A DNA stretch of 63,222 nucleotides, counting the filler, from Stramenopiles sp. TOSAG23-2 (lineage: Eukaryota): NCBI GenBank assembly GCA_900128395.1. It is 2 parts of 2 records of this genome, joined end to end, with 100 filler letters (N's around TTAATTAATTAA, not from the genome) between each part and the next. Parts side by side here need not be neighbours in the genome. Positions count along the whole stretch, not along the records: positions 1 to 31,641 come from LT649369.1; 1 more part is not named here. One strand, 5' to 3'. Position 1 is the stretch's first letter. Each line of letters starts with the position of its first letter. The translations under genes and the position numbers were made by a program. Below the pieces are notes generated by a model. The model did no database searches. It saw nothing but the letters and a program-made list of their open reading frames with translations, and was not told the DNA's origin. Shown in pieces: positions 1,099 to 51,924 of this stretch.

Positions 1099-1758
1099 AT
1101 GAATTTGGGGATGTGGACCCGCGTTTTACTTTGTGTTTGTGCAGTATTTTCTACGTTTGATCGCTCCATAGCTGTGGGCAATAAACAACGTGTCTCGACC
1201 AAGATTCCTCCTGTAGTAGGAACAACGTCGCAGCACTCTTTTTCTGTGGGATCAATAAACATGTATGCTTTGGTAAATTACAAGAGTGATCCCAAAAAAA
1301 ATCAACCGTTATATATGATAAAGTCTACAGGTACAAAAAGCACAGGTATCATGAATATCTTTCGTAAACAAAAACTTAAACAAAATGTTGAAACTTGGGG
1401 AAATTATTACAAGCAAAATGTCCGCTTAATGAAGAGACAATATGATTATAAAAAAGACAACGCGCATAAAAGAGCTTGTATAAAAATGAATTTGGAGGAA
1501 GGCATGCACACGTTCCTAAAGTTTGCGAGTACTGCAGAAAAACATTACAAGACAAATATCCAAAGTACAGTAGCTACCCCCCAGTTTCTACAAGTTGGCA
1601 CTAAAATAAGCAAGAAAGGAGGGAAGAAAGGAGGGAAAAATGGAAAACTAAAGAAAAAAATGAAAAAATCAAGCGAATCAGGAAATAAGATAGACAATGG
1701 CAAGTGCGAAAGAATCTCAAAGGGAAGAAAGTTTAAGTTTTGGGGAAGTCGATCATAG
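1099..1758 (+). CDS. Hypothetical secreted, lysine-rich protein (219 aa)
   Basis: ATG-initiated ORF with an N-terminal hydrophobic signal-like segment (WTRVLLCVCAVFSTF) and a basic tail; no family recognised. Confidence 0.6.
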   Translation: MNLGMWTRVLLCVCAVFSTFDRSIAVGNKQRVSTKIPPVVGTTSQHSFSVGSINMYALVNYKSDPKKNQPLYMIKSTGTKSTGIMNIFRKQKLKQNVETWGNYYKQNVRLMKRQYDYKKDNAHKRACIKMNLEEGMHTFLKFASTAEKHYKTNIQSTVATPQFLQVGTKISKKGGKKGGKNGKLKKKMKKSSESGNKIDNGKCERISKGRKFKFWGSRS

Positions 1759-5665: not shown

Positions 5666-8600
5666 ATGTTTCCAAGCATCACACCTAAGAAAGGTAGTGA
5701 TGAAGATGTAGATAAAGAAAAAAAGGAAAAAAAAGAAAATAGCAATAGTAATAATATAAATAAAACTAATGAAGACTTTGAAAGTTTTTCCATTAGCAAA
5801 ATTAATAATAATGATAATAATGATATATCAAGACCAAATACAAGCGGGAGTATGGGTGCCATGTCAGACAATAATAACAGCAGGCCAAGCACGCGGGAAA
5901 ATAATATGCGCAGGGATGGGAATTCTAGACCAAGCACCTCTGACAATAATGGTGATAATAGTCTGGGCTTTGTTGAAGGTAACTTAAATTTTTTTCCACC
6001 TAGACCTGGTACGGCGGATTCTGGATATTTTGAGGATGATAATGAAAGTGAAAGCCACTCGAGGCCAGGGACTAGTGGTAGCATGACTTTTTCTAGGCCA
6101 GTAACACGTGAGAATGATATCACTAATTCAAGACCTGGGACACGAGAAGGTGATGACAATAACTCGAGGCCTTCAACACGTGAAGGTTTTGGCCTTGATA
6201 ACTATGACAATAGAAGTGAATATTATAATGATAGTGAAGATGGGAACAATTCTCGTCCTGGAACAAGTGGTAGTATGAATTTTTTCCCACCACGACCAGG
6301 CACGGCAGATTCCATGGATTGGAACAATGAAGTTGGCCAAAACATACGGCCAAGGACCAGCGATACATTTCGTCGCCCAGACACGGCTGATCGACTACGT
6401 AGTGATTTTAGACCCGATAGTGCAGATACATATGGTCAGTTATCTCGACCTGGTACAACAGAAGGACAATTTATTCAAGAACGGCGTCCTGGAACAAGTG
6501 AAACATTTCGTCGGCCGAATACAGCTGATATTATTCGTACTGGTGTTAGACCTGGTACTGCTGATACATTTTATACTGACGAGCAATCAAGTATAGGTGG
6601 TAGTAGTAGGCCACAAACAGCAGCAACGATTCGACCGATGGATCAGCAACAAATGCAACAAAATCAAATACCAAAAAAACATATTAGACCCGTAACTGCT
6701 GCTTTGGATGGTGGATATAATAAGAACAACAATAACGATAACAATATTCAGCAACAATCTCAATTCAACACAAATGATAGAAATAAAAAGCCAGTAGGAA
6801 TTTTAAAGAAAAAAAGGCCACAAACAGCTATGGTTAAATCTCATATTCCAATGAGCGTTGTCGCTGATGCTAAACGTAGTGTAGATAATAAAAAAATGAG
6901 GCCTAGAACGGCAAAATTTAATTTAAGTGGGAAACCACCTACTGGTAAATCTAGGCCAACATCCTCTGCAGCTGGTACGAAGCAAAACCATGCTGGCAGC
7001 CGTCCTCGTCAAAAAATTAAGAAAAGACCAATATCAGGTACAACGCCTTTGCCTAAAGAAGCGGATCCATTGAAAAATACTGGTCCAAAAATTATAATAA
7101 CAAAATCACCTAAAAAAATTGATTTTCGACCATCCAAATTGTTAAAAGATGAGGAACGGATTGGTGGTTTTGGAAAAAGGCCATATGACTTAACAGAGAG
7201 AGAGAAACGAAAAGTGAAAGAAATGGCTGCTATTGGAAAGACAGTGAAGCGGAAAGCGCAAAAATTAAGAAATACGAATAAATTACGAGTTAGTAGAGAT
7301 CCATATGCCGTTAAAGATGCAAAAGATTTTTTTGAAGAGTTATCACGCCCACAATCAGCTGCGTCGCAAATGACATCGCGATCACGACCAAGATCACCAT
7401 CACCAATAGTGCCTCATCCACGTGGTGGAAAAGTTCTGCCAAGGCCAGCAACGGCATCTATAATGGCTCAAATCAGAAAAGAAGCCGAGGATGACGAAGA
7501 CAACAATCCGTGGGAAGTAAATTTATCCAGTTCCGTCCCAATACCACGAACAGCTGCAAGAGCAACTTCTCCGCCAACAGATGCGCAACGCCGTCCATGG
7601 GTACCAGAGAAAAAAAGCATGCCAGAAGGTTGGAAACCGAAGAATCCAAGACCTTGGTCCACCGATGAGACATTAACACGTAACGGTGTAAACCGTGGTT
7701 CGATTCTCCTTGCTGATGGTCGGCCGCATACCGTTGGAAGTTTACCACGACCTACCAAAATCTTGTCTTATAATGAAGCATATGATGTATCCCAATCTCA
7801 TTCAGAAGCTAGAAAAATTATAAAAATGCAACACAAATTGGTGGATGAAGATCAACATCGTATGTATGAAGATTGGGTACTTGATAAAGCTGATTTAGCA
7901 TTAACAAAACGCAACGTGAAATCATGGGGAACAAAAGGGCCAGGTGTAACAGAAAATCCTGTTGTGCGTGCTATCAAAAAAACGGATTTGAGGGAAAAAA
8001 AGAAAAAAAAGAAAGGCACCCATATGCGTTCTCCACAACGAGAAAAAAGACCTCATACTGTGACTGGGGCTACTGGATTAAAAGGAGAAAGGAGAAAAAT
8101 GGTATATAAATACAAAGACGAGCAAACGTACCATGCAGCGCTGTTAGATTCCTATAGAACTGGCGAGTTGGAAATTCTATGGAAAGGCTTGCAACAAATA
8201 CCTAGAAGAATAGCATTTAATACACTTTTGTTGTCGATGCACCATTTGCACACTGTGCGCTTATCTGGGAACAAACTTACGACGATTCCATCTTGGTACT
8301 TTACTACGCTACATTGTACTACCGAATTAAACATTGGAAACAATCGTTTGAAAAAATTACCAGAAGCATTAGGCTTAATGCATCAATTGGTTAAATTTGC
8401 ATGTCCACAAAATCGAATAACTTACATGCCAGAATCATTTACAAAGCTTACCAATTTAACACAATTGAAAGCTGCAGGAAATGGATTGTCGATGTTACCA
8501 AAACGGATTGGGCATTTATATAAATTACGCATCGTCCGTCTGGAAGATAATAATTTAAGAACATTGCCTGGAGATTTTCAAAAGTTAGTAAAATTACAAG

Positions 8601-11600
8601 AACTTTCGTTAAATAGAAATAGGATGGGTTCTCTTGCATTGATAACGCCATTAGATCCTCCAAAGAAGCGGACAGACAATGACGAGGACTGGGTGCAACA
8701 AAAAGTTGGTGATTTTGGTTTGTTATGGTTCAATAAAATTACAGGAGAATGTCGCAGATACAAGCCACCGGCTAGAAAAATAGAAACTAAACTTGATGAG
8801 GATTTAAAAATTGATTTATCAAAATTGAAAAAGCCCGGGCAACATGAAACGTTGGAGTCTGCTTTTGATGGATTATCTAATTTACAGAAACGGGGGAAAT
8901 TAGGGGAAGAAGGCAGAGGAGTTTATGACATACGATTTGATCCGATTGAAGGTTTCCCTTTTTTTGTTAATAATTTGACAAACGAGAAGATAATGGAAAT
9001 GCCATATGAAATAGATAATTTTGGCCGCATTGGAAACATTAAACGTTTGAATTTGTCATTTAATATTTTACATGACATACCAAAAAGTATTGGCAAACTT
9101 CATTACTTAATAGAGCTTATACTCGATCACAATAAATTGACGGTACTTCCAATTGAAATCCAAGGTTTATTTCGTTTGAAAACATTGTCCGTGGTAGACA
9201 ATCGTTTAAAAGAAATTCCATGCCAAATACGAAACATGACGAGTTTAGAGCGCTTAGCTATTAACTATAATAAATTGAAAGAGATTCCACCAGATATTGC
9301 AGAGTTGCCTAAATTGACACGATTATGGATTTCCAACAATTACATAACTGTCATTCCTGCACAATACTACAAGTTGACACTGCTCACACAGCTATATGCA
9401 GGGGACAATCCATGGGAGACACCACCGAAGAAGACGGTTCAAAAGGGCATTGTGCCAATTTTACGTGATTGTAAAGAACGTTGGGAAAGATATCGACGAG
9501 GTGGAAGACCACCTGAAGTCACTACTATGAGTGTTGGGATTTTAAGTGAGGTAGTAGTGCCCGAACCTCGTTATCAAGCTAAACTAGAATCTGCGCATAA
9601 ATCTGCAGCAAGGACGAACCAATTACGTCTCCAATGGCTCCAATTAAAAGAAATTCCTCCTCAATTCTATGAATTAACATCTTTAACAGATTTAGGTGTC
9701 ATGTGTAATTTATTGACCACAATTCCTATTACGCTATGTAAAAAATTAACAGCATTGACGACATTGAATATGTACAACAATAACTTAACGGCAATCCCTG
9801 ATGGCATATCTGCTTTGAAAAATTTAAAAAGTTTAAACCTGGAGAGAAATAAAATTGAGAAAATTTCAGGTCGAATTTCATTTTTAAATCAATTGGAATA
9901 TTTGCGCTTAACGGCAAATCGTATTAAAACGTTGCCGGAAAAATTTCATCGGTTGAAAAATATTAAAGAGTTACATTTGGATGTCAATAATTTGCATAAG
10001 TTACCAGATGCAATAGTTGAATTGCCAAAGTTGCGTGTTTTATTATTAATGAAAAATAAATTAAGAAAATTTCCCCCAAACATAATCCAACTGAAACGTT
10101 TAGAAATTTTAAATTTAAATCAAAATTTTCTTTCACGAATGCCTAAAAGTATACACGAGTTACCGCGTTTAAAGGAACTATGTTTAAGTCACAATCGCAT
10201 AGGGAAACTTGCTGAATCGTTTGGATTAGGGGCATTACAATCAACTTTAGCAAAATTATGGTTGTACGGTAATAATGTCGTGGAATTGCCTTACTCCTTT
10301 CGTTTTTTAACAACATTAGACGATCTAAGATTAGAACATAATCCAATGCGTTCACCACCGCCAGCATTAGCGTTAGAAGGTCCAGCACGAATTCGCATTT
10401 ACTTAGAAGATAGAATAACACGAAATACGGCACTGAAAGAACAATTAAATGAAAAATTGTTACGTTTTAATACACGAAATCTTAGTCCACAATCAAGCGA
10501 AGTATTAATTCGTAGTAAATATTTAGCCGCAGATACGACTGTTGGGTATCTTAATGACGATGATTTGTTATACGTCGATAAAATGGTAGATAATTATATT
10601 AATGCAGATTACTACAACTACGAATTGACATTGCAAGAAATAGTTGCGTGGATTGAAGAAACAAAAGAACACAGGAGAATTGAATTCCAGAAAGAATTAT
10701 TGAATAGATTCTTAGTGTGGATCGAATGGGCTGAAATGGAAGAAAATGAACAGCCAACTTTATTAACTGATGACATCTATCGCTTTGACATGGTTCGTAA
10801 ATGGGGGGAGGAGGTACAAGGGCAGCGCAATGCCGAGCCTGTATTTGCTATTGTAACACCAGCAATTTTCAGGAAGGAAAAATGGGTTCCAGCAGACGAT
10901 GGAATTGAAGAAAAACAAGACAATGAAGTGGGGGATGAAGACGATATATACAAGTCTATTGTAGATCGTGGAAACGATCGTATAAAAAGAAGAAATGCGC
11001 ATGAAGAACATCAGCAAATGATTAAACGAGACTACACATTTGAATATGTTTTGACATTTGATTATTCCGAACGTCAATTATTGGAAGCGGCAAAAATGTT
11101 CCTTGGACCATATGGGCCGGTTGCACAAGTGGAAAGTGGAGTTAAATTTCAACTTGATGCGGCAGGTAAAGCACGTGCAAAAATTCGTGCGCAAGAACGT
11201 TTAGAAAAAATGCGAGAGAAAGAAAGGAAACGACGCCATAAAATAAAGATGGAGAGGGAGAAAAAATTGTTAGAGAAGAAAAATGCAAAAGCGGAGAAAA
11301 AAGAGAAAAAGAGGCTTGCAAAAGAAGCGAAGAAGAAGAAGAAAGGTAATAAAGGTGATGAGAACAAAGAGTCTGATGGTGAAGATGTGACAAGTGGAGG
11401 AGAAGATGTTACTAGTGGTGGGGAAGATGCAACTAGCGGTGATGAAGAGAAACAAAAAGAAACAGATGGAGATGCAACCGAGGGAGAGGAGGAGGAAGAA
11501 GAAGAAGAGGAGGAGGATATATTATTAAAAAAGAATGACGCATTGGTTCTATTGAAAACTATATACACGCAAGAGGAAGTAAATCGAAAATATCAAGAGG

Positions 11601-12457
11601 AACAACGTGACAATCGTGCTCAACAGCAAGCAAGAGATGATGTGACGGAATGGTTTACTTTAAAACAAGGTAAAAAAATGCAAAAGTTGGAATACAAAAA
11701 GCGTAAGAAATATTCAATAAAACGGGTAAGCGTAGTGAAAAAGGCTATTAGAAATTCAAAGAGAGAATTGAAAGAGGCAGAAAAAGAATATAAATACATC
11801 ATGTCCAGAAGCCAGGCTTACGACGACAATCCTGCAGCATTTGAAAACCACAGATTTAACACTATTCAAGAAAGAGATGCGATGGTCATGGATGCTAATT
11901 TAGGTATGAATAAGCTAACTGAGACTCTAGAGCAATATAAAGATAATTTGGAAGAAGTTATTTTGTTAAGCAAACGTAAGAAAAAAGAAATTGAAGAAGA
12001 ATTATATTTCGAGTTATTGGAAAAATATGCAAGGGTGGCGCGTGAAAATGTTATTGATGACGGTAGAGTTTATGCACGAGATCGCAAATTGAGGAGGCCA
12101 TGGGATGGACGAAATGGTAAATTGTATAAACAGTGGTTAAGAGAACAAGCAGATCTGATGGCATTGATCACTGGTGGTGGTGGAGATGATACCGACTCTG
12201 ACTCTTCCTCAGGTGATACACCTCGTGATTTATTTGGTTTCAAAGTCAAAGTGGATCCTCTTGAAACTAAATTTGAATGGGATAAATACGTTGATCCATT
12301 GGAGAAAGAAATGAAAGAGAAAGCTAGGTTGGCAAAAATTGCAAAGAAGAAGGAAAAAGCAGAAAGGCGTGCGTTGGCAGAAGCAGCTGGAGAAGACTTT
12401 GATGAAAGTAGCAGTAGTGAGGATGAAGATGATGATGATGAAGATATTGAAGATTAA
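5666..12457 (+). CDS. Giant leucine-rich repeat protein (2263 aa) with RP(G/S)T-repeat disordered N-terminus, WW-like inserts and coiled-coil/acidic C-terminus
   Basis: Many LxxLxLxxNxLxxLP repeats (e.g. LHTVRLSGNKLTTIP, LIELILDHNKLTVLP); repeated SRPGT/RPxTA motifs at the N-terminus; uninterrupted 6.8-kb ORF. Confidence 0.9.
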   Translation: MFPSITPKKGSDEDVDKEKKEKKENSNSNNINKTNEDFESFSISKINNNDNNDISRPNTSGSMGAMSDNNNSRPSTRENNMRRDGNSRPSTSDNNGDNSLGFVEGNLNFFPPRPGTADSGYFEDDNESESHSRPGTSGSMTFSRPVTRENDITNSRPGTREGDDNNSRPSTREGFGLDNYDNRSEYYNDSEDGNNSRPGTSGSMNFFPPRPGTADSMDWNNEVGQNIRPRTSDTFRRPDTADRLRSDFRPDSADTYGQLSRPGTTEGQFIQERRPGTSETFRRPNTADIIRTGVRPGTADTFYTDEQSSIGGSSRPQTAATIRPMDQQQMQQNQIPKKHIRPVTAALDGGYNKNNNNDNNIQQQSQFNTNDRNKKPVGILKKKRPQTAMVKSHIPMSVVADAKRSVDNKKMRPRTAKFNLSGKPPTGKSRPTSSAAGTKQNHAGSRPRQKIKKRPISGTTPLPKEADPLKNTGPKIIITKSPKKIDFRPSKLLKDEERIGGFGKRPYDLTEREKRKVKEMAAIGKTVKRKAQKLRNTNKLRVSRDPYAVKDAKDFFEELSRPQSAASQMTSRSRPRSPSPIVPHPRGGKVLPRPATASIMAQIRKEAEDDEDNNPWEVNLSSSVPIPRTAARATSPPTDAQRRPWVPEKKSMPEGWKPKNPRPWSTDETLTRNGVNRGSILLADGRPHTVGSLPRPTKILSYNEAYDVSQSHSEARKIIKMQHKLVDEDQHRMYEDWVLDKADLALTKRNVKSWGTKGPGVTENPVVRAIKKTDLREKKKKKKGTHMRSPQREKRPHTVTGATGLKGERRKMVYKYKDEQTYHAALLDSYRTGELEILWKGLQQIPRRIAFNTLLLSMHHLHTVRLSGNKLTTIPSWYFTTLHCTTELNIGNNRLKKLPEALGLMHQLVKFACPQNRITYMPESFTKLTNLTQLKAAGNGLSMLPKRIGHLYKLRIVRLEDNNLRTLPGDFQKLVKLQELSLNRNRMGSLALITPLDPPKKRTDNDEDWVQQKVGDFGLLWFNKITGECRRYKPPARKIETKLDEDLKIDLSKLKKPGQHETLESAFDGLSNLQKRGKLGEEGRGVYDIRFDPIEGFPFFVNNLTNEKIMEMPYEIDNFGRIGNIKRLNLSFNILHDIPKSIGKLHYLIELILDHNKLTVLPIEIQGLFRLKTLSVVDNRLKEIPCQIRNMTSLERLAINYNKLKEIPPDIAELPKLTRLWISNNYITVIPAQYYKLTLLTQLYAGDNPWETPPKKTVQKGIVPILRDCKERWERYRRGGRPPEVTTMSVGILSEVVVPEPRYQAKLESAHKSAARTNQLRLQWLQLKEIPPQFYELTSLTDLGVMCNLLTTIPITLCKKLTALTTLNMYNNNLTAIPDGISALKNLKSLNLERNKIEKISGRISFLNQLEYLRLTANRIKTLPEKFHRLKNIKELHLDVNNLHKLPDAIVELPKLRVLLLMKNKLRKFPPNIIQLKRLEILNLNQNFLSRMPKSIHELPRLKELCLSHNRIGKLAESFGLGALQSTLAKLWLYGNNVVELPYSFRFLTTLDDLRLEHNPMRSPPPALALEGPARIRIYLEDRITRNTALKEQLNEKLLRFNTRNLSPQSSEVLIRSKYLAADTTVGYLNDDDLLYVDKMVDNYINADYYNYELTLQEIVAWIEETKEHRRIEFQKELLNRFLVWIEWAEMEENEQPTLLTDDIYRFDMVRKWGEEVQGQRNAEPVFAIVTPAIFRKEKWVPADDGIEEKQDNEVGDEDDIYKSIVDRGNDRIKRRNAHEEHQQMIKRDYTFEYVLTFDYSERQLLEAAKMFLGPYGPVAQVESGVKFQLDAAGKARAKIRAQERLEKMREKERKRRHKIKMEREKKLLEKKNAKAEKKEKKRLAKEAKKKKKGNKGDENKESDGEDVTSGGEDVTSGGEDATSGDEEKQKETDGDATEGEEEEEEEEEEDILLKKNDALVLLKTIYTQEEVNRKYQEEQRDNRAQQQARDDVTEWFTLKQGKKMQKLEYKKRKKYSIKRVSVVKKAIRNSKRELKEAEKEYKYIMSRSQAYDDNPAAFENHRFNTIQERDAMVMDANLGMNKLTETLEQYKDNLEEVILLSKRKKKEIEEELYFELLEKYARVARENVIDDGRVYARDRKLRRPWDGRNGKLYKQWLREQADLMALITGGGGDDTDSDSSSGDTPRDLFGFKVKVDPLETKFEWDKYVDPLEKEMKEKARLAKIAKKKEKAERRALAEAAGEDFDESSSSEDEDDDDEDIED

Positions 12458-13141
12458 AAAAAATAAAAAAAAACTTTTTTGTTTATCATTATATTTAATT
12501 ATATTTAATCATATACCGAAGTAAAACTACACATGTCATTTCTATTTTTCATTTTACGCCCCACCATTATTGTCATTTAAATCAGAGTTCGTACGAGTAT
12601 CATAATTAATTACATGTATGTACATCGTATTATTTCAATTATACGAATATGATATATATACTAAAAGAAGTAAATTTACGCTCGTACTATGCATACCTTT
12701 TATAATTTCCTCTTCCTCATTTTTTCAAGTCATAAAGCAGATATTATTTTACACAAAAGTAAAATTAATAATTTTTATATCCACCAACCATCATTATAAC
12801 AATTTTTCTCTTACCTTTCCCACTACGAAAAGGAAGATTAAATCAAACGAGAACGCCGAGATGTGATCCTAACTGTATTATACATGTATTGAAAACAATG
12901 GAAAACACATAACTAAAGTATTGAATAAACACGTTCTGTGACATCAGCATATTAATATGTACTCATTTTAATACAAAAAATATATTTAAACATTTTTTGG
13001 TTCATCTTCAACAGTTGAATATTCATCTGTAGCAACTTTTGACACGTTGTTTTTACTAATATTACTTTTATTAATATTTCTAATCAAACAATTACATGTA
13101 CTGAAAATCATAACAGCTGCCCTGGTTGCAGCTGTACTGGG

Positions 13142-14086
13142 TCAAAAACGCGTCAGGGCTAACATACTTGAATTAACTATCGCTGATAAAATTAAAATTT
13201 TATTAACATTTGTATTTACACTATTTATGCTAACAAAATGTATGTCATATAATATTTTAATCAATGCATTTAAATATATGAAGAAAACGACTTTGTATGG
13301 AATTGTTGTCACAGCATTGCCCCGCCGTTTCCAAATGATAATGGTACTTAATGTGCTAAGAAATGAAAAAGGATTTGAACCATGAATTTCAAACATAAAT
13401 ATGTCAATAGTCAAAATCCATATTATCAACACTACAATATATATATTAATATTTAATTGTAAAAATATCCAAATCAATAATAATAAAATAACGTGAAATA
13501 AGCTCCATAATCTTAAAACATTGGAGTATACGTGAGTTTGTACGTTGCAAAACAATAATCTCATTGATTTATTTTTTCCACCTGGTGGTACAAATGGTTT
13601 AAATTTGCTGTTTTCTTGTATATATGGACTCCATTCGATATTTTCATGTCCACTTTTGATCGTTAATAGTTCTTTGTTTGTTTTAATTATATTTATAATT
13701 GTTTCAGAATTTTGTACAATATCGTCACTTCCTCCATGAAATATGCCATCAATAATTATAACAGGAAATGATATACTTGGTTTCGCTAGGAGCTTTTTCA
13801 AAGCAAAACGATAGTTGATTGACTCACCATTTTTAACATAAATTTCATTTCCATTGGCATTATTAAATAAAAAATCCTTTCCACTTTTACAATAACCACA
13901 TCCTTCTTTAACATATATAACTATCCTATTTGTTTCTATATCTTGTAAAATTTGATTTGCTGTTTTTTTAACTGACTTGGAATGGTAACATATTAAACCG
14001 CATGTAATGTCATCCAAATATTGGGCGAACCATACCGACAATCCTGTTTTAGCAACTTCCACATGGCTTTTTCGTTTATTCGCCAT
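13142..14086 (-). CDS. Glutaredoxin (CGYC) fused to a DUF4395-like membrane domain; may extend through UGA to 12986
   Basis: KEGCGYC active site and SFPVIIIDGIFHGGSDD glutaredoxin motif, followed by several hydrophobic helices. Confidence 0.8.
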   Translation of the reverse strand: MANKRKSHVEVAKTGLSVWFAQYLDDITCGLICYHSKSVKKTANQILQDIETNRIVIYVKEGCGYCKSGKDFLFNNANGNEIYVKNGESINYRFALKKLLAKPSISFPVIIIDGIFHGGSDDIVQNSETIINIIKTNKELLTIKSGHENIEWSPYIQENSKFKPFVPPGGKNKSMRLLFCNVQTHVYSNVLRLWSLFHVILLLLIWIFLQLNINIYIVVLIIWILTIDIFMFEIHGSNPFSFLSTLSTIIIWKRRGNAVTTIPYKVVFFIYLNALIKILYDIHFVSINSVNTNVNKILILSAIVNSSMLALTRF

Positions 14087-14713
14087 CGTTTGTTTTTGTC
14101 ATCAAGTGTGGTTATATTATATATATATACTATTTCTACTTCTTTGTTTCATCCTTTATTGATTATAAAGATCTATATCTATATATATATAAAACAACAA
14201 TTTGTTGGGTTTGGTATGCATATTCAATTATCATCAATTATTATTATTATACCTGTGTAGTTAGCATGGTCATAGCACTAACAAAAAGCTATAGTAATAT
14301 TATTAATATTAATATTATAGTTTTTGGTTGATGATTCATACTGGAATATGTTTGCGAATACATGTTCCAAAAAGAACAAAAACTATCAAAACCAAAAGAA
14401 ATACAATTTAATTATTATACCTTAATGTTTTTTATAATGCTATTGCAGTGTTATTGGCACCGGCGTGTTATATTGAAGAACCACAATAATAAAATACACA
14501 CATTATATGCAACACATGATGAATTGTGGTGTATCTTTTTTATAAAAATTGTTGTGCATGTATATAAACTATATCTATATAGAATATATGTTTGTATGTA
14601 GACATGCATAATAATACATAGAGATTATCATTGTATCAGATTTTAAGTTGTTTATACATTAATTTATTTATATATATATATATATATATATTTATATTCA
14701 ATTTTCGACAATA

Positions 14714-16738
14714 ATGCCAAGTGGTAACAACGAATTTTCATTATTACAAAACGCAAATAATAATAGTGACAGCGGAAATAGAAAGGTAACGTCTACCTCT
14801 TTAAATATGGTATCCGATACTGATGCATCTTCCAGGAATGTTTCAGGATTTGAGCATACGGCAATTGAAGTGCCAAAATCAGAGGCACCAGGGACACGGT
14901 GCATTGATTTTAAATTACTATGGGCATATACTGGGCCTGGTTGGTTAATGTCTATTGCCTACATAGATCCTGGCAATCTTGAAGCGGACTTACAGTCAGG
15001 GGCATATGCGGGGATGCAACTACTATGGATGTTATTTTGGGCAACTGTTGCTGGTTTGTTGTTGCAAATCTTAGCGTTACGCTTAGGCGTAGTGACCGGT
15101 AAAAACCTTGCACAAGTTTGCAGGGAAAGATACTCAAGACCTACATCATTTATATTATGGATCATGACGGAATTAGCTATTATTGGTTCCGATATACAAG
15201 AAGTGGTTGGCAGTGCAATTGCATTTAAAATATTATTTGGTTGGAAATTATGGGTAGGATGTGTTGTGACAGGACTTGATACTTTCACGTTTCTCCTATT
15301 ACATGTATTAGGTACAAGAGCCTTAGAGGCCTTTTTCACTTCACTTATTTTTATTATGTTGGTTTGTTTTGTGATTAATTTTGCTGGTGCAGATCCACAA
15401 TGGTTAGGTGGCATGAGTGATGATGGTGGTGGTATTTTATTTGGCACGGCTGTGCCAACTGTTGATGATTACGCGCTTGTTCAAGCCGTTGGAATATTAG
15501 GTGCAGTGATTATGCCACATAATATATATTTACATTCAGCACTGGTAACTAGTCGCAAAATCAATCGCCGTGATCCAAAGCAAATTGAATTAGCAAATAA
15601 ATATTTCTCTATTGAAGGTAGTGTTGCACTTTTCGTCTCTTTTTTAATTAATGGTGCGGTAGTCGCGGTGTTTTCACGTGGTTTTTTTAATCGAAATCAA
15701 TGCGCACGACCAGGTTGGGATACACAAACAGGATTAGTAGAGGGGAATGTGATCATAAATGGCAGTAATGTTAATTTGGCTTGTTATCCTGGGCCAGAAC
15801 GCGACGGCTGTCATATCAGTTTACAAACAGGAGAATATTTAAGTTGTGTAACACCGTTAGGTTTGGAAGGTAAATGTTGTGGTATAGGTTTACATAATGC
15901 TGGTACGGCATTAGAAGGTTTTCTTGGTAAAAGCGCTAAATTCGTGTGGGCAATCGGATTATTAGCAGCTGGACAAAGTTCAACCATGACTGGTACGTTT
16001 GCTGGACAATTTGTTATGGAAGGTTTTTTAAATTGGAAAGTCAGTCCATGGATACGGGTTATGATCACACGCACTGTAGCAATTGGTCCCGCAATTGCAG
16101 TGGCGATCATTTCATCATCTAATGCTACTGCTGGTGATGTCTTAAATGAATGGTTAAATGTTTTGCAAAGTGTACAGTTGCCATTCGCTGTGTTACCTGT
16201 TTTACATTTCACTTCAGATTCAAGAGTGATGGGTGAATTTGTTAATCGTGGTCCAGTAAAAGTCGTGTGTTGGTTTTTAGCTGCTCTCGTTATAGTTATT
16301 AATTTTTATTTAGTTACAACATTTGTGACTGCGCCAGATTCGTAAGTTTGCGCCTCCCTTTATATGAACTTGAAAACTTACATATACGTATTTATTTATA
16401 TTTATATATTAATATATATATTCAAAATATCTAACAAAACACCCTTTTTTTTATATATATAACACAGGCCAACACCACAAACTCCACTTTTTTTCATGTT
16501 CGTAATTCTTGTAGGAGTGTTATATTTGACATTTATATTTTATGTTATTAAAGAAGATTTGCAAGAGTTTTGGAAATTGATAAGACGAAGCATGGGTCAA
16601 AATGATACTTTTGATGATAGCTTAAATCTATTGAAGGAAGATAGTAATGAAGGTGATAGTAATATTTATTATGAAAATTTAGATAGTAATAGTAACATCG
16701 TTGATGATTACGGTGCAATAAATAGTGATGAAGTTTAA
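14714..16738 (+). CDS. NRAMP: NRAMP/SLC11 divalent metal transporter, two exons (14714-16341, 16468-16738)
   Basis: GPGWLMSIAYIDPGN, IMPHNIYLHS and AAGQSSTMTGTFAGQFVMEGFL signatures. Splicing GTAAGT(16342)...ACAG(16467) joins in frame to the 16496 ORF, which supplies the last TM helix. Confidence 0.95.
16342..16467 (+). other. Spliceosomal GT-AG intron (126 nt) in NRAMP
   Basis: GTAAGT donor, CTAAC branch-point-like motif near 16431, T-tract and CAG acceptor; removal restores the frame (..PDS-PTPQTPLFFMFVIL..). Confidence 0.9.
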
Positions 16739-35164: not shown

Positions 35165-37171
35165 ATGTCGTTATCGACATATCGACGTGCTTATTATGAT
35201 ATGCTCGTTGATTTAGGTAGTAGATTTTTATCTATACGGCGTTGGAAAATATTAATAGCGTTTTATGGGAGTGTATTTCTTGGAGCAACGGGATATTCCT
35301 ATTATCTGCATTTCTTTTCTTCTTTTAAATCAAGCAAAAAGAAGAAAAAGAAGAAAAAACGTACTGGTACTGGTATTATTGAAGAGCTAAAACGGTTATT
35401 ACCATTGTCTTTTGGACATACAATTTTTTCTAGTTCATTTGGCCATTTCATTTTATACAGCAGTATGCTATTTATTCGTGTTTTAACATATGCACAATTG
35501 GCCGATATAGGGGCTATTGGAATGAAATGTTTAGTAAATAAAGATTGGGACTTGCTATTTTTGACTCAGTCAAGGTTCATGACATTATGCATCCCAGTTT
35601 CCATGGTAAATGCATTTGCAAGATATGAGCAACATCAATTAGCATTATCTATTAGATCTAATTTATTAACTTACATCAATAGCTGTTACTTAAATAAATA
35701 CGCAACGTTCTACAGGGTCAATAGTTTTGGGAAAAAATTATTAAGTACTGTTGATCAAAGGGTAACAACGGATATTGAACAATTTTCAGAGAAACTAGCA
35801 GAAACTTGGGGTTCTATGTTACGTCCAACATTTGAAATTGTGGTTTACTCATATAATATATACATAAATTTAGGCTTGCCCCAATTAGTTTTTTTCATTG
35901 GATATTTTTTTGGTACTAGCATTTGGTTAAAATCTATAATGCCCCATTTCGGAAAAATGTTAAGTAAAAGTAAAGATTTGGAAGGTAAATTTCGTCAGAA
36001 TCATTCCTCCATAATTGAACATAGTGAGGAAATTGCATTTTTAAAAGGTGGAGAAGTTGAAAATAAAAGATGCGAAGAAACTTTTAAAGAAATAAAACAG
36101 AATAGGCACAAAGTTCTCGAAAATCGAATGCTAATCAGTTTCCTAGATACGACAGCTATTAAACATTTTGGTACATTAGTTAGCTATGAAGTGATGATAC
36201 CGGCAATGTATCTGGGTCGTGAAGGTATTAAATTGGAAACACATGGAGATAGAACTCAATTTTTAATTCAAGCTATACAATACTTTACATCGCTTGGAAA
36301 TGCTTTGAATACCCTTTATAATGCAGTCTACGTTGGCTTCACTGAACTAGCAGGTATGACAACTCGTGTAGTTGAATTAATTGATGAATTAGAAAGACGT
36401 GGAGGCAATGATGATGGAAATGACTTGGTTGCAAAAATGTTTGTTGAAAAGCATAGGCTATTATTAAGAAATAACAACAGATTAAATCAACCACAACGAT
36501 TTAATTCAAAAAATATTTTATTTAATAAAGTAACAATTTTTTCCCCAGAAGGAAGATTGCTTGTGAAAGATTTGAATTTAAGTATTTGTCAAGGGGAAAA
36601 TTTAATCATCGAAGGTCCTAATGGCGCAGGAAAAAGTTCTCTTCTTCGAACTATTGGCGGTCTTTGGCCTTTACTTAGTGGCGCGTTGCATTCACCACAA
36701 GATGGCATTGTTTTTGTACCACAAAAACCATACGTATTTAAAGGCAGTTTAGTTGAGCAAATTGTTTATCCAGATGAAGAACTAACATTGAATGGTACTA
36801 CTGTGAAAAAAAACACACCACATTTGGAAAGTTTATTAAAGAAAGTTGGATTGGACGTAAAGAAATTGCTTCCAAAAGAGAATCAATGGAATGATGTTCT
36901 TCCATGGAACGATATATTAAGTGGTGGTGAGCGACAACGATTAGCACTGGCACGTGTATTGTATCATTCTCCACAATATGTTTGCTTAGATGAAGCGACT
37001 AGTGCCATAAGTAAAGATATAGAAACAACATTATTTGAGCTATGCAAGCAGCAAAATATAACTTTAATTAGCGTAAGTCATCGCCCATACTTACGACGTT
37101 TTCATTCACAAGTTTTAACCATCAAAGGTGATGGCAAAGGTAGTTGGGAGGTTAAGCAGGTAGAAAATTAA
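35165..37171 (+). CDS. ABCD: Peroxisomal ABC transporter subfamily D half-transporter
   Basis: DQRVTTDIEQF, EEIAFLKGG (EAA-like loop), GPNGAGKSS Walker A, LSGGERQRLALAR signature, LDEATSA Walker B. Confidence 0.92.
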   Translation: MSLSTYRRAYYDMLVDLGSRFLSIRRWKILIAFYGSVFLGATGYSYYLHFFSSFKSSKKKKKKKKRTGTGIIEELKRLLPLSFGHTIFSSSFGHFILYSSMLFIRVLTYAQLADIGAIGMKCLVNKDWDLLFLTQSRFMTLCIPVSMVNAFARYEQHQLALSIRSNLLTYINSCYLNKYATFYRVNSFGKKLLSTVDQRVTTDIEQFSEKLAETWGSMLRPTFEIVVYSYNIYINLGLPQLVFFIGYFFGTSIWLKSIMPHFGKMLSKSKDLEGKFRQNHSSIIEHSEEIAFLKGGEVENKRCEETFKEIKQNRHKVLENRMLISFLDTTAIKHFGTLVSYEVMIPAMYLGREGIKLETHGDRTQFLIQAIQYFTSLGNALNTLYNAVYVGFTELAGMTTRVVELIDELERRGGNDDGNDLVAKMFVEKHRLLLRNNNRLNQPQRFNSKNILFNKVTIFSPEGRLLVKDLNLSICQGENLIIEGPNGAGKSSLLRTIGGLWPLLSGALHSPQDGIVFVPQKPYVFKGSLVEQIVYPDEELTLNGTTVKKNTPHLESLLKKVGLDVKKLLPKENQWNDVLPWNDILSGGERQRLALARVLYHSPQYVCLDEATSAISKDIETTLFELCKQQNITLISVSHRPYLRRFHSQVLTIKGDGKGSWEVKQVEN

Positions 37172-50694: not shown

Positions 50695-51924
50695 CTACAT
50701 AATAATATTATCATACACTAATTTTGCTGACAATGCATCTAAACCTAATTTCTCCATCAAATCATTTTTATTTTTGTACATAGATGGCATCGTAAATTTG
50801 GCCCAGGTTGGTAAAGTTGCACTAAATTGCCATGGTTTATTATTATTGTTGTTATTGTCATTTTCAAACATTCCATTATTACCACCATAGATCCATGCAT
50901 GTAAATAAATTGGACGTGTACAACAATTTCCCCATGGACCTTCAACATAATCATCTTTATTATTATTATTTTTCCTCGATTTACAAGCTTGAATATGCAT
51001 TTCTATTTCCGACATATCAACACCTTTTTCATTTTTATATTTTTCATATGCATGCAATAACATTTTTAACAATTTTCCATCATCATCATCTCGATATGGA
51101 TCTTCATATTTTAATTTATTATCACCACCATGCAAAGGATCATTAGCAATAGGATATCCAAGTTCTTTCAAATGTATACGGATCTGATGCTTTCGCCCAG
51201 TTTTAGGGAAACAAATGACCAAGCTTGAAGGCTCAACATCGTCACATTTATTTGCTTCTTTTACACGAAGAAAATATGTAATAGCTTCACTTAAGTGATT
51301 TCTACCATTTTTGATTTGTTTTTTACATTCAATTAATTGATTTTCAGGAAATGATCCACATACTCGTGCCATATAAATTTTCGATACATCTCTTTCTTGA
51401 ATCATCGCTTGTAGACGTGACGCTACTTTTTTCTCAGTTGTGCTCATAACAACACCTGTAGTGCATATATCTAAACGATGTGCTAATGAAAATCGACCAT
51501 GTAAATCAAGTTGTTTCTTTATCGCACTACGTATATTGCTTTGCCCATATCCAACACATTTAATTGAATTGAGCGGCGCAGTTTTATTAATAACAATTAG
51601 ATTATCATGATTATGTATTATTTCAATTTTATCAGCTGACATTGGATGATCACAAATAACTCGTTTCATTCCCTTTTTCCCACCAATGTATGGATAAAAA
51701 TATCGTAAACCAAATAGTTCAATGGGTTCCATTGATTTTCGTTGTTTTTCTTTCCATAGTTTTCTTTTTTTTCGTTTTTCAGCATTCCTTTTCATACGCT
51801 CATCTAAATTCATTTCGATATTTTTCGAACTTTTATTAATGGGATTTGATGAGGAGTTGGAAGAAGATGACAGCGACGTGTTTGGCACGGGTCTCTTTAA
51901 TGATTGTTGTTCTTTCTTCATCAT
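50695..51924 (-). CDS. RluA-family RNA pseudouridine synthase
   Basis: IVINK, HRLDICTTG (catalytic Asp), KIYMARV, TGRKHQIRIHLKELGYPIANDPLHG and YLHAW. Confidence 0.93.
   Translation of the reverse strand: MMKKEQQSLKRPVPNTSLSSSSNSSSNPINKSSKNIEMNLDERMKRNAEKRKKRKLWKEKQRKSMEPIELFGLRYFYPYIGGKKGMKRVICDHPMSADKIEIIHNHDNLIVINKTAPLNSIKCVGYGQSNIRSAIKKQLDLHGRFSLAHRLDICTTGVVMSTTEKKVASRLQAMIQERDVSKIYMARVCGSFPENQLIECKKQIKNGRNHLSEAITYFLRVKEANKCDDVEPSSLVICFPKTGRKHQIRIHLKELGYPIANDPLHGGDNKLKYEDPYRDDDDGKLLKMLLHAYEKYKNEKGVDMSEIEMHIQACKSRKNNNNKDDYVEGPWGNCCTRPIYLHAWIYGGNNGMFENDNNNNNNKPWQFSATLPTWAKFTMPSMYKNKNDLMEKLGLDALSAKLVYDNIIM

What the first reader, a model, noticed from the sequence alone, without database searches (positions are those of the whole stretch)
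12986..14086. Candidate new selenoprotein: in-frame UGA at the position of a conserved Cys in a glutaredoxin-DUF4395-like fusion
Seen: the ORF stops at TGA (13142-13144) after ..SMLALTRF, but the frame stays open for 51 more codons (PSTAATRAAVMIFSTCNCLIR...EDEPKNV) to TAA at 12986, which is unusual in such AT-rich DNA. The membrane part follows the DUF4395 pattern as I recall it (VxxNVxR, xxIDxxxxxxxG.xS, P-x-K, ending in F-C-x-G-C), which puts the UGA at the Cys of FC. Established: stramenopiles have rich selenoproteomes, mostly redox proteins. Inference: UGA encodes Sec and is redox-coupled to the CGYC glutaredoxin. I could not see a canonical SECIS by eye; there are only weak hairpins near 12805-12840 and 12940-12970 on the minus strand.
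Basis: partly seen in the sequence, partly recalled or inferred. Interest (0 to 1): 0.7.

Follow-up and report, generated by a model that had tools for sequence, protein, structure and literature searches.

The report
Selenocysteine glutaredoxin-membrane protein, marine protists
A marine protist gene that databases cut short at a UGA "stop" very probably reads it as selenocysteine, giving a glutaredoxin fused to a four-helix membrane domain, and it appears to stand for a widespread selenoprotein family that I could not find described.

Summary
The UGA (13142-13144) is unchanged in RNA contigs of three runs. Of 129 distant relatives, 93 reach the motif before it: 92 end exactly there, one is a TGA read-through, none has Cys. 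A 56%-identical orthologue also has TGA, then 11 of 18 identical residues, 10 by synonymous codons. The host has tRNA-Sec, SepSecS and six TGA-bearing GPx genes. The membrane part is a remote DUF4395 relative, below the Pfam cut-off. The UGA aligns with DUF4395's first conserved Cys, which is itself TGA in 4 Chloroflexota genes lying beside thioredoxin genes. Most likely a membrane selenol oxidoreductase recycled by its own glutaredoxin; the substrate is not shown. It is not MSP or Ostreococcus hypothetical 1-3. Limits: DNA for only two lineages, no protein evidence, one algal catalogue supplement unreadable. The scan earlier noted other glutaredoxin-membrane UGA genes and Cys-type glutaredoxin-DUF4395 fusions on other DNA, with no sequence look-alike of this one.

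The parts
12986..14086 (-). Complete intronless CDS, 366 aa when the UGA is read as Sec
   Evidence: single match in the own genome; RNA contigs cover 12973-14095 in pieces with no joint
14003..14065 (-). N-terminal helix (residues 8-28), present in many relatives; role unknown
   Evidence: AlphaFold model; alignment
13673..13978 (-). Dithiol glutaredoxin domain (about residues 37-138)
   Evidence: Pfam E 4.8e-5; structure match to PfGrx1 4hjm Z 13.6, rmsd 1.9, 98 aligned
13889..13900 (-). CGYC active-site motif (residues 63-66)
   Evidence: of 92 relatives ending at the motif, 51 show C-x-x-C in these four columns, 37 have gaps only, 3 are partly gapped, 1 is SAEC
13145..13540 (-). Four-helix membrane domain, remote DUF4395 relative (residues 183-314); conserved Y-x-N-x-x-R, D, G-x-x-P, W-x-x-R-G, P-Y-K, N-S-x-x-L-A-x-x-R-F
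   Evidence: hydropathy peaks 2.3, 2.5, 1.7, 1.7
13142..13144 (-). In-frame UGA, predicted Sec315, in a U-P-S-T (UxxT) context at the end of helix 4
13088..13141 (-). 18 conserved codons after the UGA, with two Cys (C331, C333) shared with the orthologue
   Evidence: 11 of 18 residues identical with L003, 10 by synonymous codons; third-position identity 3 of 18; 0 of 20000 column shuffles reach this
13113..13135 (-). 8-bp hairpin starting 6 nt after the UGA (placed like a Sec redefinition element, recalled); not conserved in L003
12986..13087 (-). Poorly conserved polar tail and true stop TAA
12724..12794 (-). SECIS-like element: AUGA-U, 4 bp + 4-nt 3' bulge + 9 bp helix, unpaired A run, inner hairpin, U-GA-A
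   Evidence: own pattern scan, 1 of 100 shuffles with any hit; orthologue L003 hit with 0 of 100; 0 of 23 control regions; folds (z -1.95); covered by RNA contigs, strain indels fall in loops

Best explanation
The gene encodes a 366-residue membrane selenoprotein. UGA315 is decoded as selenocysteine through the 3' SECIS-like element and the host's Sec machinery (about 0.9). The cytosolic glutaredoxin (CGYC) is followed by four membrane helices, so Sec315 at the end of helix 4 faces the same side as the glutaredoxin (inferred). Most likely cycle (about 0.65, inferred): the selenolate attacks a substrate at the membrane surface and becomes oxidised or forms a mixed Se-S bond; glutathione and the fused CxxC glutaredoxin, perhaps through the conserved C331/C333, re-reduce it. 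Substrate guesses: lipid or organic hydroperoxide about 0.35 (UxxT resembles GPx, recalled), persulfide or sulfane sulfur about 0.3, disulfides of a partner membrane protein about 0.25, metal or metalloid handling about 0.1. Shown: sequence, conservation, RNA, machinery, homology. Not shown: Sec incorporation, topology, coupling, substrate.
For: 92 of the 93 representatives that reach the N-S..L..R-F motif end exactly there, the 93rd being a TGA=W read-through of a near-identical gene. L003 (56% identity, same downstream neighbour) has TGA plus a synonymous-rich conserved continuation. RNA contigs X1 13102-13513 (0 differences), X2 12973-13972 and X3 13086-13322 bridge the TGA with no difference there and no joint. 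SECIS-like hits in window, L002 and L003; the same bulged design follows host GPx L014. Host: 3 tRNA-Sec matches over cut-off with TCA anticodon, SepSecS, 6 of 6 GPx matches with TGA at the catalytic column, thioredoxin reductase ending G-C-TGA-G-TAA. DUF4395 link: ESM Atlas 0.90, 202 shared features; DUF4395 profile scores 13 of 97 family members above 8 bits against 0 of 97 reversed; hhalign median score 29, E 2.6e-4, against at most 16.1 for shuffled columns; UGA on the first Cys in 68 of 71 global alignments, which share one alignment and are not independent. Four Chloroflexota DUF4395 genes have TGA at that Cys, a hairpin behind it and selA in the genome; 17 of 20 divergent DUF4395 loci, these four included, are followed by a CxxC thioredoxin-like ORF, and 3 of 71 typical ones are fused to one.
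Against: The stop codon itself was seen in only two lineages (window/L002 and L003); the 92 relatives are protein ends, codon unknown. No Cys-bearing close homologue was found, so the classic Sec/Cys pair is only remote. My SECIS pattern was written after seeing the candidates and finds only 2 of 8 host selenoprotein-family 3' regions; Rfam SECIS_1 found nothing here or anywhere in the genome; folding z-scores are weak (-1.95 window, +0.15 L003); the two 3' regions do not align above chance (59 of 500 shuffles). hhalign probabilities are modest (median 42%, range 1-76%), and the Sec-bearing bacterial subfamily alone gives no significant profile match (score 12.9). The model is unreliable at residues 315-320 (pLDDT under 50), and no Cys63-Sec315 distance could be measured. 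RNA data are assembled contigs without strand, and DNA carry-over was not controlled.
Confidence: 0.88

Rival explanations
1. The UGA is a plain stop and R-F is a conserved true C-terminus, for example a sorting signal.
For: All 92 relatives ending at one column fits a fixed terminus equally well; 9 of 23 window ORFs end in TGA; most relatives' codons were not seen.
Against: Synonymous-rich conservation of 18 codons after the TGA between 56%-identical orthologues; SECIS-like elements in both; the column matches a conserved Cys/Sec of DUF4395.
Confidence: 0.04
2. The UGA is read through as Cys, Trp or Arg by a leaky context (UGA-C plus the hairpin 6 nt downstream), not as Sec.
For: UGA-C context and an 8-bp hairpin in the window; the SECIS is non-canonical and not recognised by Rfam.
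Against: The hairpin is not conserved in L003, the SECIS-like element is; the host is Sec-rich; bacterial relatives show Cys/TGA interchange at this column with selA present.
Confidence: 0.05
3. The selenoprotein is real but already catalogued under another name (a 'GRX', 'Hypo' or unnamed entry in algal selenoproteome databases).
For: Members occur in sequenced algae (Triparma, Proboscia). The supplement of PMC7539508 and its database could not be read; Aureococcus and Emiliania lists were not seen.
Against: MSP and hypothetical 1-3 in PMC2375036 supplement 2 have different Sec motifs and sizes (compared by eye). The main text of PMC7539508 has 0 occurrences of 'DUF', and its fusion section names no such fusion. 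Only 2 papers in the library mention DUF4395, neither as a selenoprotein.
Confidence: 0.15
4. The UGA is removed by splicing or editing, or the organism reads TGA as Trp throughout.
For: A 31-nt GT..AG stretch (13167-13137) with a branch-like CTGAC surrounds the TGA; gene callers read three near-identical sequences through as Trp.
Against: RNA contigs of three runs keep the stretch; removing it shifts the frame, deletes the invariant motif and stops 9 codons later; the gene's six Trp are all TGG; TGA ends other ORFs.
Confidence: 0.01

Closest known systems
DUF4395 (Pfam PF14340), small bacterial membrane proteins with C-x-(G/x)-C
   Same: Four-helix layout with matching motifs end to end; the UGA column aligns with the first Cys; partners are thioredoxin-fold proteins.
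   Different: Below the Pfam cut-off; U-P-S-T replaces C-x-G-C, so the second Cys is absent; fused to an N-terminal glutaredoxin; eukaryotic.
Class I dithiol glutaredoxins (PF00462; PfGrx1 4hjm, Chlamydomonas Grx2 7ncw)
   Same: Fold (Z 13.5-13.6, rmsd 1.8-1.9) and CxxC motif.
   Different: Membrane-fused; below the NCBIfam GRX_euk cut-off (24.8 against 87 bits). Sec is not in the Grx active site, unlike the UxxC Grx listed for bacteria in PMC13188914.
MSP, the 'membrane selenoprotein' of Ostreococcus, Chlamydomonas, Volvox and Dictyostelium (PMC2375036)
   Same: Protist multi-pass membrane protein with Sec next to a hydrophobic helix; almost only Sec forms (PMC7539508).
   Different: MSP has L-V-G-S-U-C-W-P after its first helix and no glutaredoxin; here R-F-U-P-S-T after the fourth helix. 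No shared motif by eye.
E. coli YgaP (rhodanese plus two-helix membrane domain; PMC4730233)
   Same: Catalytic cytosolic domain fused to a helical hairpin ending in F158-C159-G160.
   Different: Analogy only: YgaP did not appear in sequence or fold searches; rhodanese instead of glutaredoxin; two helices per chain; Cys.
Diatom nucleoredoxin-like DUF4395 cluster (ESM Atlas, 78 members, PF14340 99%, PF13905 97%)
   Same: Eukaryotic fusion of DUF4395 with a thioredoxin-fold domain.
   Different: Feature score only 0.76, a lead; different redoxin; Sec status not examined.

Membership tests
Eukaryotic selenoprotein | In-frame UGA kept in the transcript | tested here: met
   RNA contigs of three runs bridge it unchanged; contigs only, no strand
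Eukaryotic selenoprotein | Coding conservation on both sides of the UGA | tested here: met
   44 of 60 codons before, 11 of 18 after, 10 synonymous; one pair of lineages
Eukaryotic selenoprotein | SECIS in the 3' UTR (RUGA/GA core, about 11-14 bp helix, unpaired AA) | tested here: inconclusive
   Found in both orthologues by a post hoc pattern with low background; not found by Rfam; SECISearch3 not available
Eukaryotic selenoprotein | Sec machinery in the host | tested here: met
   tRNA-Sec, SepSecS, TGA-bearing GPx and thioredoxin reductase; eEFSec, SBP2, SPS2 and PSTK not searched
Eukaryotic selenoprotein | Cys-containing homologues at the UGA column | tested here: inconclusive
   None among 129 representatives; only remote DUF4395 relatives supply the Cys
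Eukaryotic selenoprotein | Selenium in the protein | not testable with these tools
   needs 75Se labelling or mass spectrometry
DUF4395 (PF14340) | Score above the Pfam gathering cut-off (24.5 bits) | tested here: not met
   No hit for this protein; best relative 17.3 bits
DUF4395 (PF14340) | Two conserved Cys (C-x-x-C) | tested here: not met
   U-P-S-T here; C-x-G/A-C in 70 of 71 typical bacterial members
DUF4395 (PF14340) | Full-length profile homology (superfamily level) | tested here: met
   remote, probabilities modest
Glutaredoxin | Grx fold with CxxC | tested here: met
Glutaredoxin | Glutathione-dependent activity | not testable with these tools
   needs an assay
MSP | G-S-U-C-W-P motif after the first helix | tested here: not met
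   compared by eye with PMC2375036 supplement 2

The most novel reading that the evidence does not exclude
A widespread, apparently Sec-only, undescribed selenoprotein family of marine protists (about 90 clusters at 50% identity) whose Sec sits in a membrane four-helix domain rather than a thioredoxin fold. Together with Sec forms in Chloroflexota it would define DUF4395 as a new catalytic Cys/Sec membrane redox module that works with a thioredoxin-fold partner in both bacteria and eukaryotes.
Probability: 0.68. Interest if true: 0.78.

Novelty: new variant of a known kind. Interest (0 to 1): 0.7.

Why it matters
New eukaryotic selenoprotein families are rare, and most have Sec in a soluble thioredoxin-like fold. 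This one seems broad (stramenopile algae with cultured members, many uncultured protists) and is cut short at the UGA in the public predictions examined, so it drops out of selenium budgets for plankton. With no close Cys form, Sec/Cys pair searches would miss it, which points to a blind spot of those methods. Because Sec marks catalytic residues, it gives DUF4395, a domain of unknown function, a specific active residue and a testable redox role.

Tried and rejected
Rfam on 12300-13300: 6 weak matches, no SECIS; SECIS_1 over the genome: none, even at GPx genes, so the model is insensitive here. Length of the open frame after the stop: not discriminating. More DNA for distant members: the metagenome scan gave 2 loci from 329 candidate stretches; none confirmed in viral contigs (43 candidates) or prokaryote genomes (199); so not found there, not shown absent. 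Longer fused forms (680-2000 aa): none among 7995 candidates scored, weak evidence. Plasmid tblastn: the 30 rows listed, of 37, matched only the glutaredoxin part. DUF4395 in 4 plasmid records and in the own genome: none. Sep15/SelM in the own genome: no match, uninformative. Solved structures for the membrane domain: no significant sequence or Foldseek match, only generic helical bundles at Z up to 10.9. Six TGA matches of a DUF4395 motif scan (of 120) were out-of-frame noise; 54 of 102 translated matches were kept as DUF4395-like. Alignment of the two 3' regions: not above chance. A 31-nt intron over the UGA and TGA=Trp: rejected. No DUF4395 match with a TGA among 23 matches in 81 genomes of a second phylum or 51 matches in 151 genomes of a third. 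No complex prediction was run.

Full report
Observation. The minus-strand ORF runs from ATG 14086 to TGA 13144-13142 (314 codons) and the frame stays open for 51 codons to TAA 12988-12986. Pfam finds only a glutaredoxin (residues 55-114, E 4.8e-5). The gene has one match in the 32.8-Mb own genome. The open stretch alone is weak evidence: 3 of 23 other long ORFs of the window have 54-98 open codons after their stop, and 9 of 23 end in TGA.

Homologues. A phmmer search of 1.84 billion representatives gave 129 proteins at E up to 0.001, mostly 24-44% identical. 93 reach the motif N-S-x-x-L-x-x-x-R-(F/L/V/W): 92 end exactly there, and one is a near-identical sequence read through with TGA as Trp. 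36 lack the motif (fragments, likely intron-broken calls, glutaredoxin-only hits). None continues with Cys. Named members include Triparma verrucosa and T. strigata (GMH92237.1, GMH74412.1, ending at the same column), a Proboscia alata fragment, and a transcriptome labelled 'Hpha' (which I recall as a diplonemid, unverified). These are protein ends; their codons were not seen. DNA was obtained for two loci only: L002 (99%) and L003 (56%, same converging neighbour gene). L003 has TGA at the column. Of the next 18 codons 11 give the same residue, 10 of them by a different codon; identity by codon position is 10, 15 and 3 of 18; 0 of 20000 column shuffles reach 11. That is selection on protein sequence beyond the UGA, from one pair of lineages.

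RNA. 17 RNA runs hold part of the stretch; four were laid. Contigs of X1 (13102-13513, no differences), X2 (12973-13972) and X3 (13086-13322) bridge the TGA without change or joint. X1, X2 and X3 contigs also cover 12724-12794, where two strain indels fall in loops. These are contigs without strand, and no silent control stretch was laid. A 31-nt GT..AG stretch around the TGA looked like an intron, but it is retained in these contigs and its removal would destroy the motif.

SECIS and machinery. The host has three tRNA-Sec matches over the cut-off (TCA anticodon), SepSecS, six GPx matches all with TGA at the catalytic column, and a thioredoxin reductase ending G-C-TGA-G-TAA. Rfam's SECIS model finds nothing in this genome. 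By eye and then by a pattern of my own, an element at 12794-12724 has the AUGA/GA core, a 13-bp helix with a 4-nt 3' bulge, an A run and an inner hairpin. The pattern hits this region (1 of 100 shuffles), L002 (2 of 100) and L003 (0 of 100), 2 of 8 host selenoprotein-family 3' regions (GPx L014, with the same bulged design, and a SelT-like gene), and 0 of 23 control regions. The pattern was set after seeing the candidates, its sensitivity is low, folding z-scores are weak, and the two UTRs do not align above chance. I rate the SECIS likely, not proven. An 8-bp hairpin 6 nt after the UGA is not shared by L003.

Anatomy. AlphaFold with 74 sequences (pLDDT 86, pTM 0.77) gives an N-terminal helix, a glutaredoxin (4hjm Z 13.6, rmsd 1.9, 98 aligned), and helices 188-210, 215-235, 262-284 and 293-311, with low confidence at 315-320. 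Four hydrophobic peaks and basic loops at 150-187 and 236-266 suggest that the glutaredoxin, the W-x-x-R-G / P-Y-K loop and residue 315 share the cytosolic side (inference). The membrane domain has no significant solved relative.

DUF4395. The Atlas ranks DUF4395 clusters first for residues 170-314 (0.90). Pfam gives sub-threshold hits for 3 of 74 members. A profile of 71 bacterial DUF4395 sequences scores 13 of 97 family members above 8 bits and 0 of 97 reversed. Profile-profile local scores have median 29 (E 2.6e-4, probability 42%) against at most 16.1 for column shuffles. The UGA falls on the first Cys of C-x-G-C in 68 of 71 global alignments, which differ only in master sequence. So this is a remote relative, not a member by cut-off.

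Bacterial Sec forms. In 151 genomes of the phylum of an Anaerolineae genome (Chloroflexota), 4 of 71 DUF4395 matches hold a TGA. In all four it is that first Cys (U-x-x-C), with a hairpin behind it and selA in the genome; Cys orthologues exist. 17 of 20 divergent loci fetched, the four included, are followed by a CxxC thioredoxin-like ORF, and 3 of 71 typical proteins are fused to one. No NCBIfam model covers the two Sec forms scanned. This subfamily alone does not match the eukaryotic profile significantly, so the link runs through typical DUF4395.

Mechanism. The recurring pairing of this domain with a thioredoxin-fold CxxC partner, as neighbour or fusion, and the use of Sec at one column, point to a catalytic selenol that the fused glutaredoxin recycles with glutathione. 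That coupling and the substrate are inferred, not shown.

Literature. PMC2375036: passages and supplements 1 and 2 (parts 7-8 read); MSP and hypothetical 1-3 differ from this protein by eye. PMC7539508: text parts 1-2, section 11 and passages; 42 families, no 'DUF', no such fusion named; its supplement could not be read and may bear on novelty. PMC13188914: passages only; the library-wide search for DUF4395 did not list it. That search gave 2 papers, both passing mentions. PMC4730233: passages on YgaP. Searches were seen as listings and showed no description of this family. Aureococcus and Emiliania selenoprotein lists were not seen.

Earlier scan notes. No sequence look-alike for this protein or for the Triparma member. 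Three notes describe shorter glutaredoxin-membrane UGA genes, one filed near MSP, which prompted my MSP test; whether they are this family is unknown. Three notes describe Cys-type glutaredoxin-DUF4395-SLAC1-hemerythrin fusions; I did not recover these.

Verdict. Sec-encoding UGA about 0.9; family undescribed about 0.8 given that; redox coupling to the glutaredoxin about 0.65. New variant of a known kind: ordinary Sec recoding, but a new membrane-domain selenoprotein family. Interest 0.7.

Noticed in passing
L220-L223 (G154:C28:4534-4917, G068:C588:1737-2120, G006:C19:1836-2213, G032:C14:29025-29405): Candidate bacterial selenoprotein subfamily: DUF4395 with U-x-x-C, a SECIS-like hairpin behind the UGA, selA in the genome and an overlapping membrane-anchored thioredoxin-like gene; Cys orthologues among L224-L237; no NCBIfam model for the two scanned.
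   Followed up: partly
L014 3' region; L016 3' region; L009 3' region: Host SECIS-like elements with 3'-side bulges and long A-rich apical parts that Rfam SECIS_1 misses; L009 has a candidate with a very large bulge, seen by eye only.
   Followed up: partly
L014 (G000:C631:45799-46119): GPx-like gene with an unusual catalytic context (V-A-R-L-TGA-D instead of A-S-x-U-G), about 14 kb from SepSecS on the same contig.
   Followed up: no
L015, L019: Two SelW/Rdx-like genes with in-frame TGA (Y-C-G-D-TGA-G and H-G-T-S-TGA-G contexts); the second lacks the usual Cys.
   Followed up: no
L007/L008 (G000:C631:30178-31801): SepSecS matches in three pieces over two open frames; insertion, intron or frameshift not examined.
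   Followed up: no
L004/L005 (G000:C1254:11214-11478): Two tRNA-Sec copies in tandem 179 bases apart, and a third on C7545.
   Followed up: no
window 14714-16345 (+): NRAMP metal transporter gene divergent from this gene (Pfam E 1.5e-104); a shared promoter region is possible; linkage not examined in relatives.
   Followed up: no
window 5666-12457 (+): 2263-aa leucine-rich-repeat protein with N-terminal R-P-x-T repeats, converging on this gene; same neighbour in L003.
   Followed up: no
window 1099-1758 (+), 35165-37171 (+), 50695-51924 (-): ORFs followed by 54-98 open codons after TAG or TAA; probably introns or chance.
   Followed up: no
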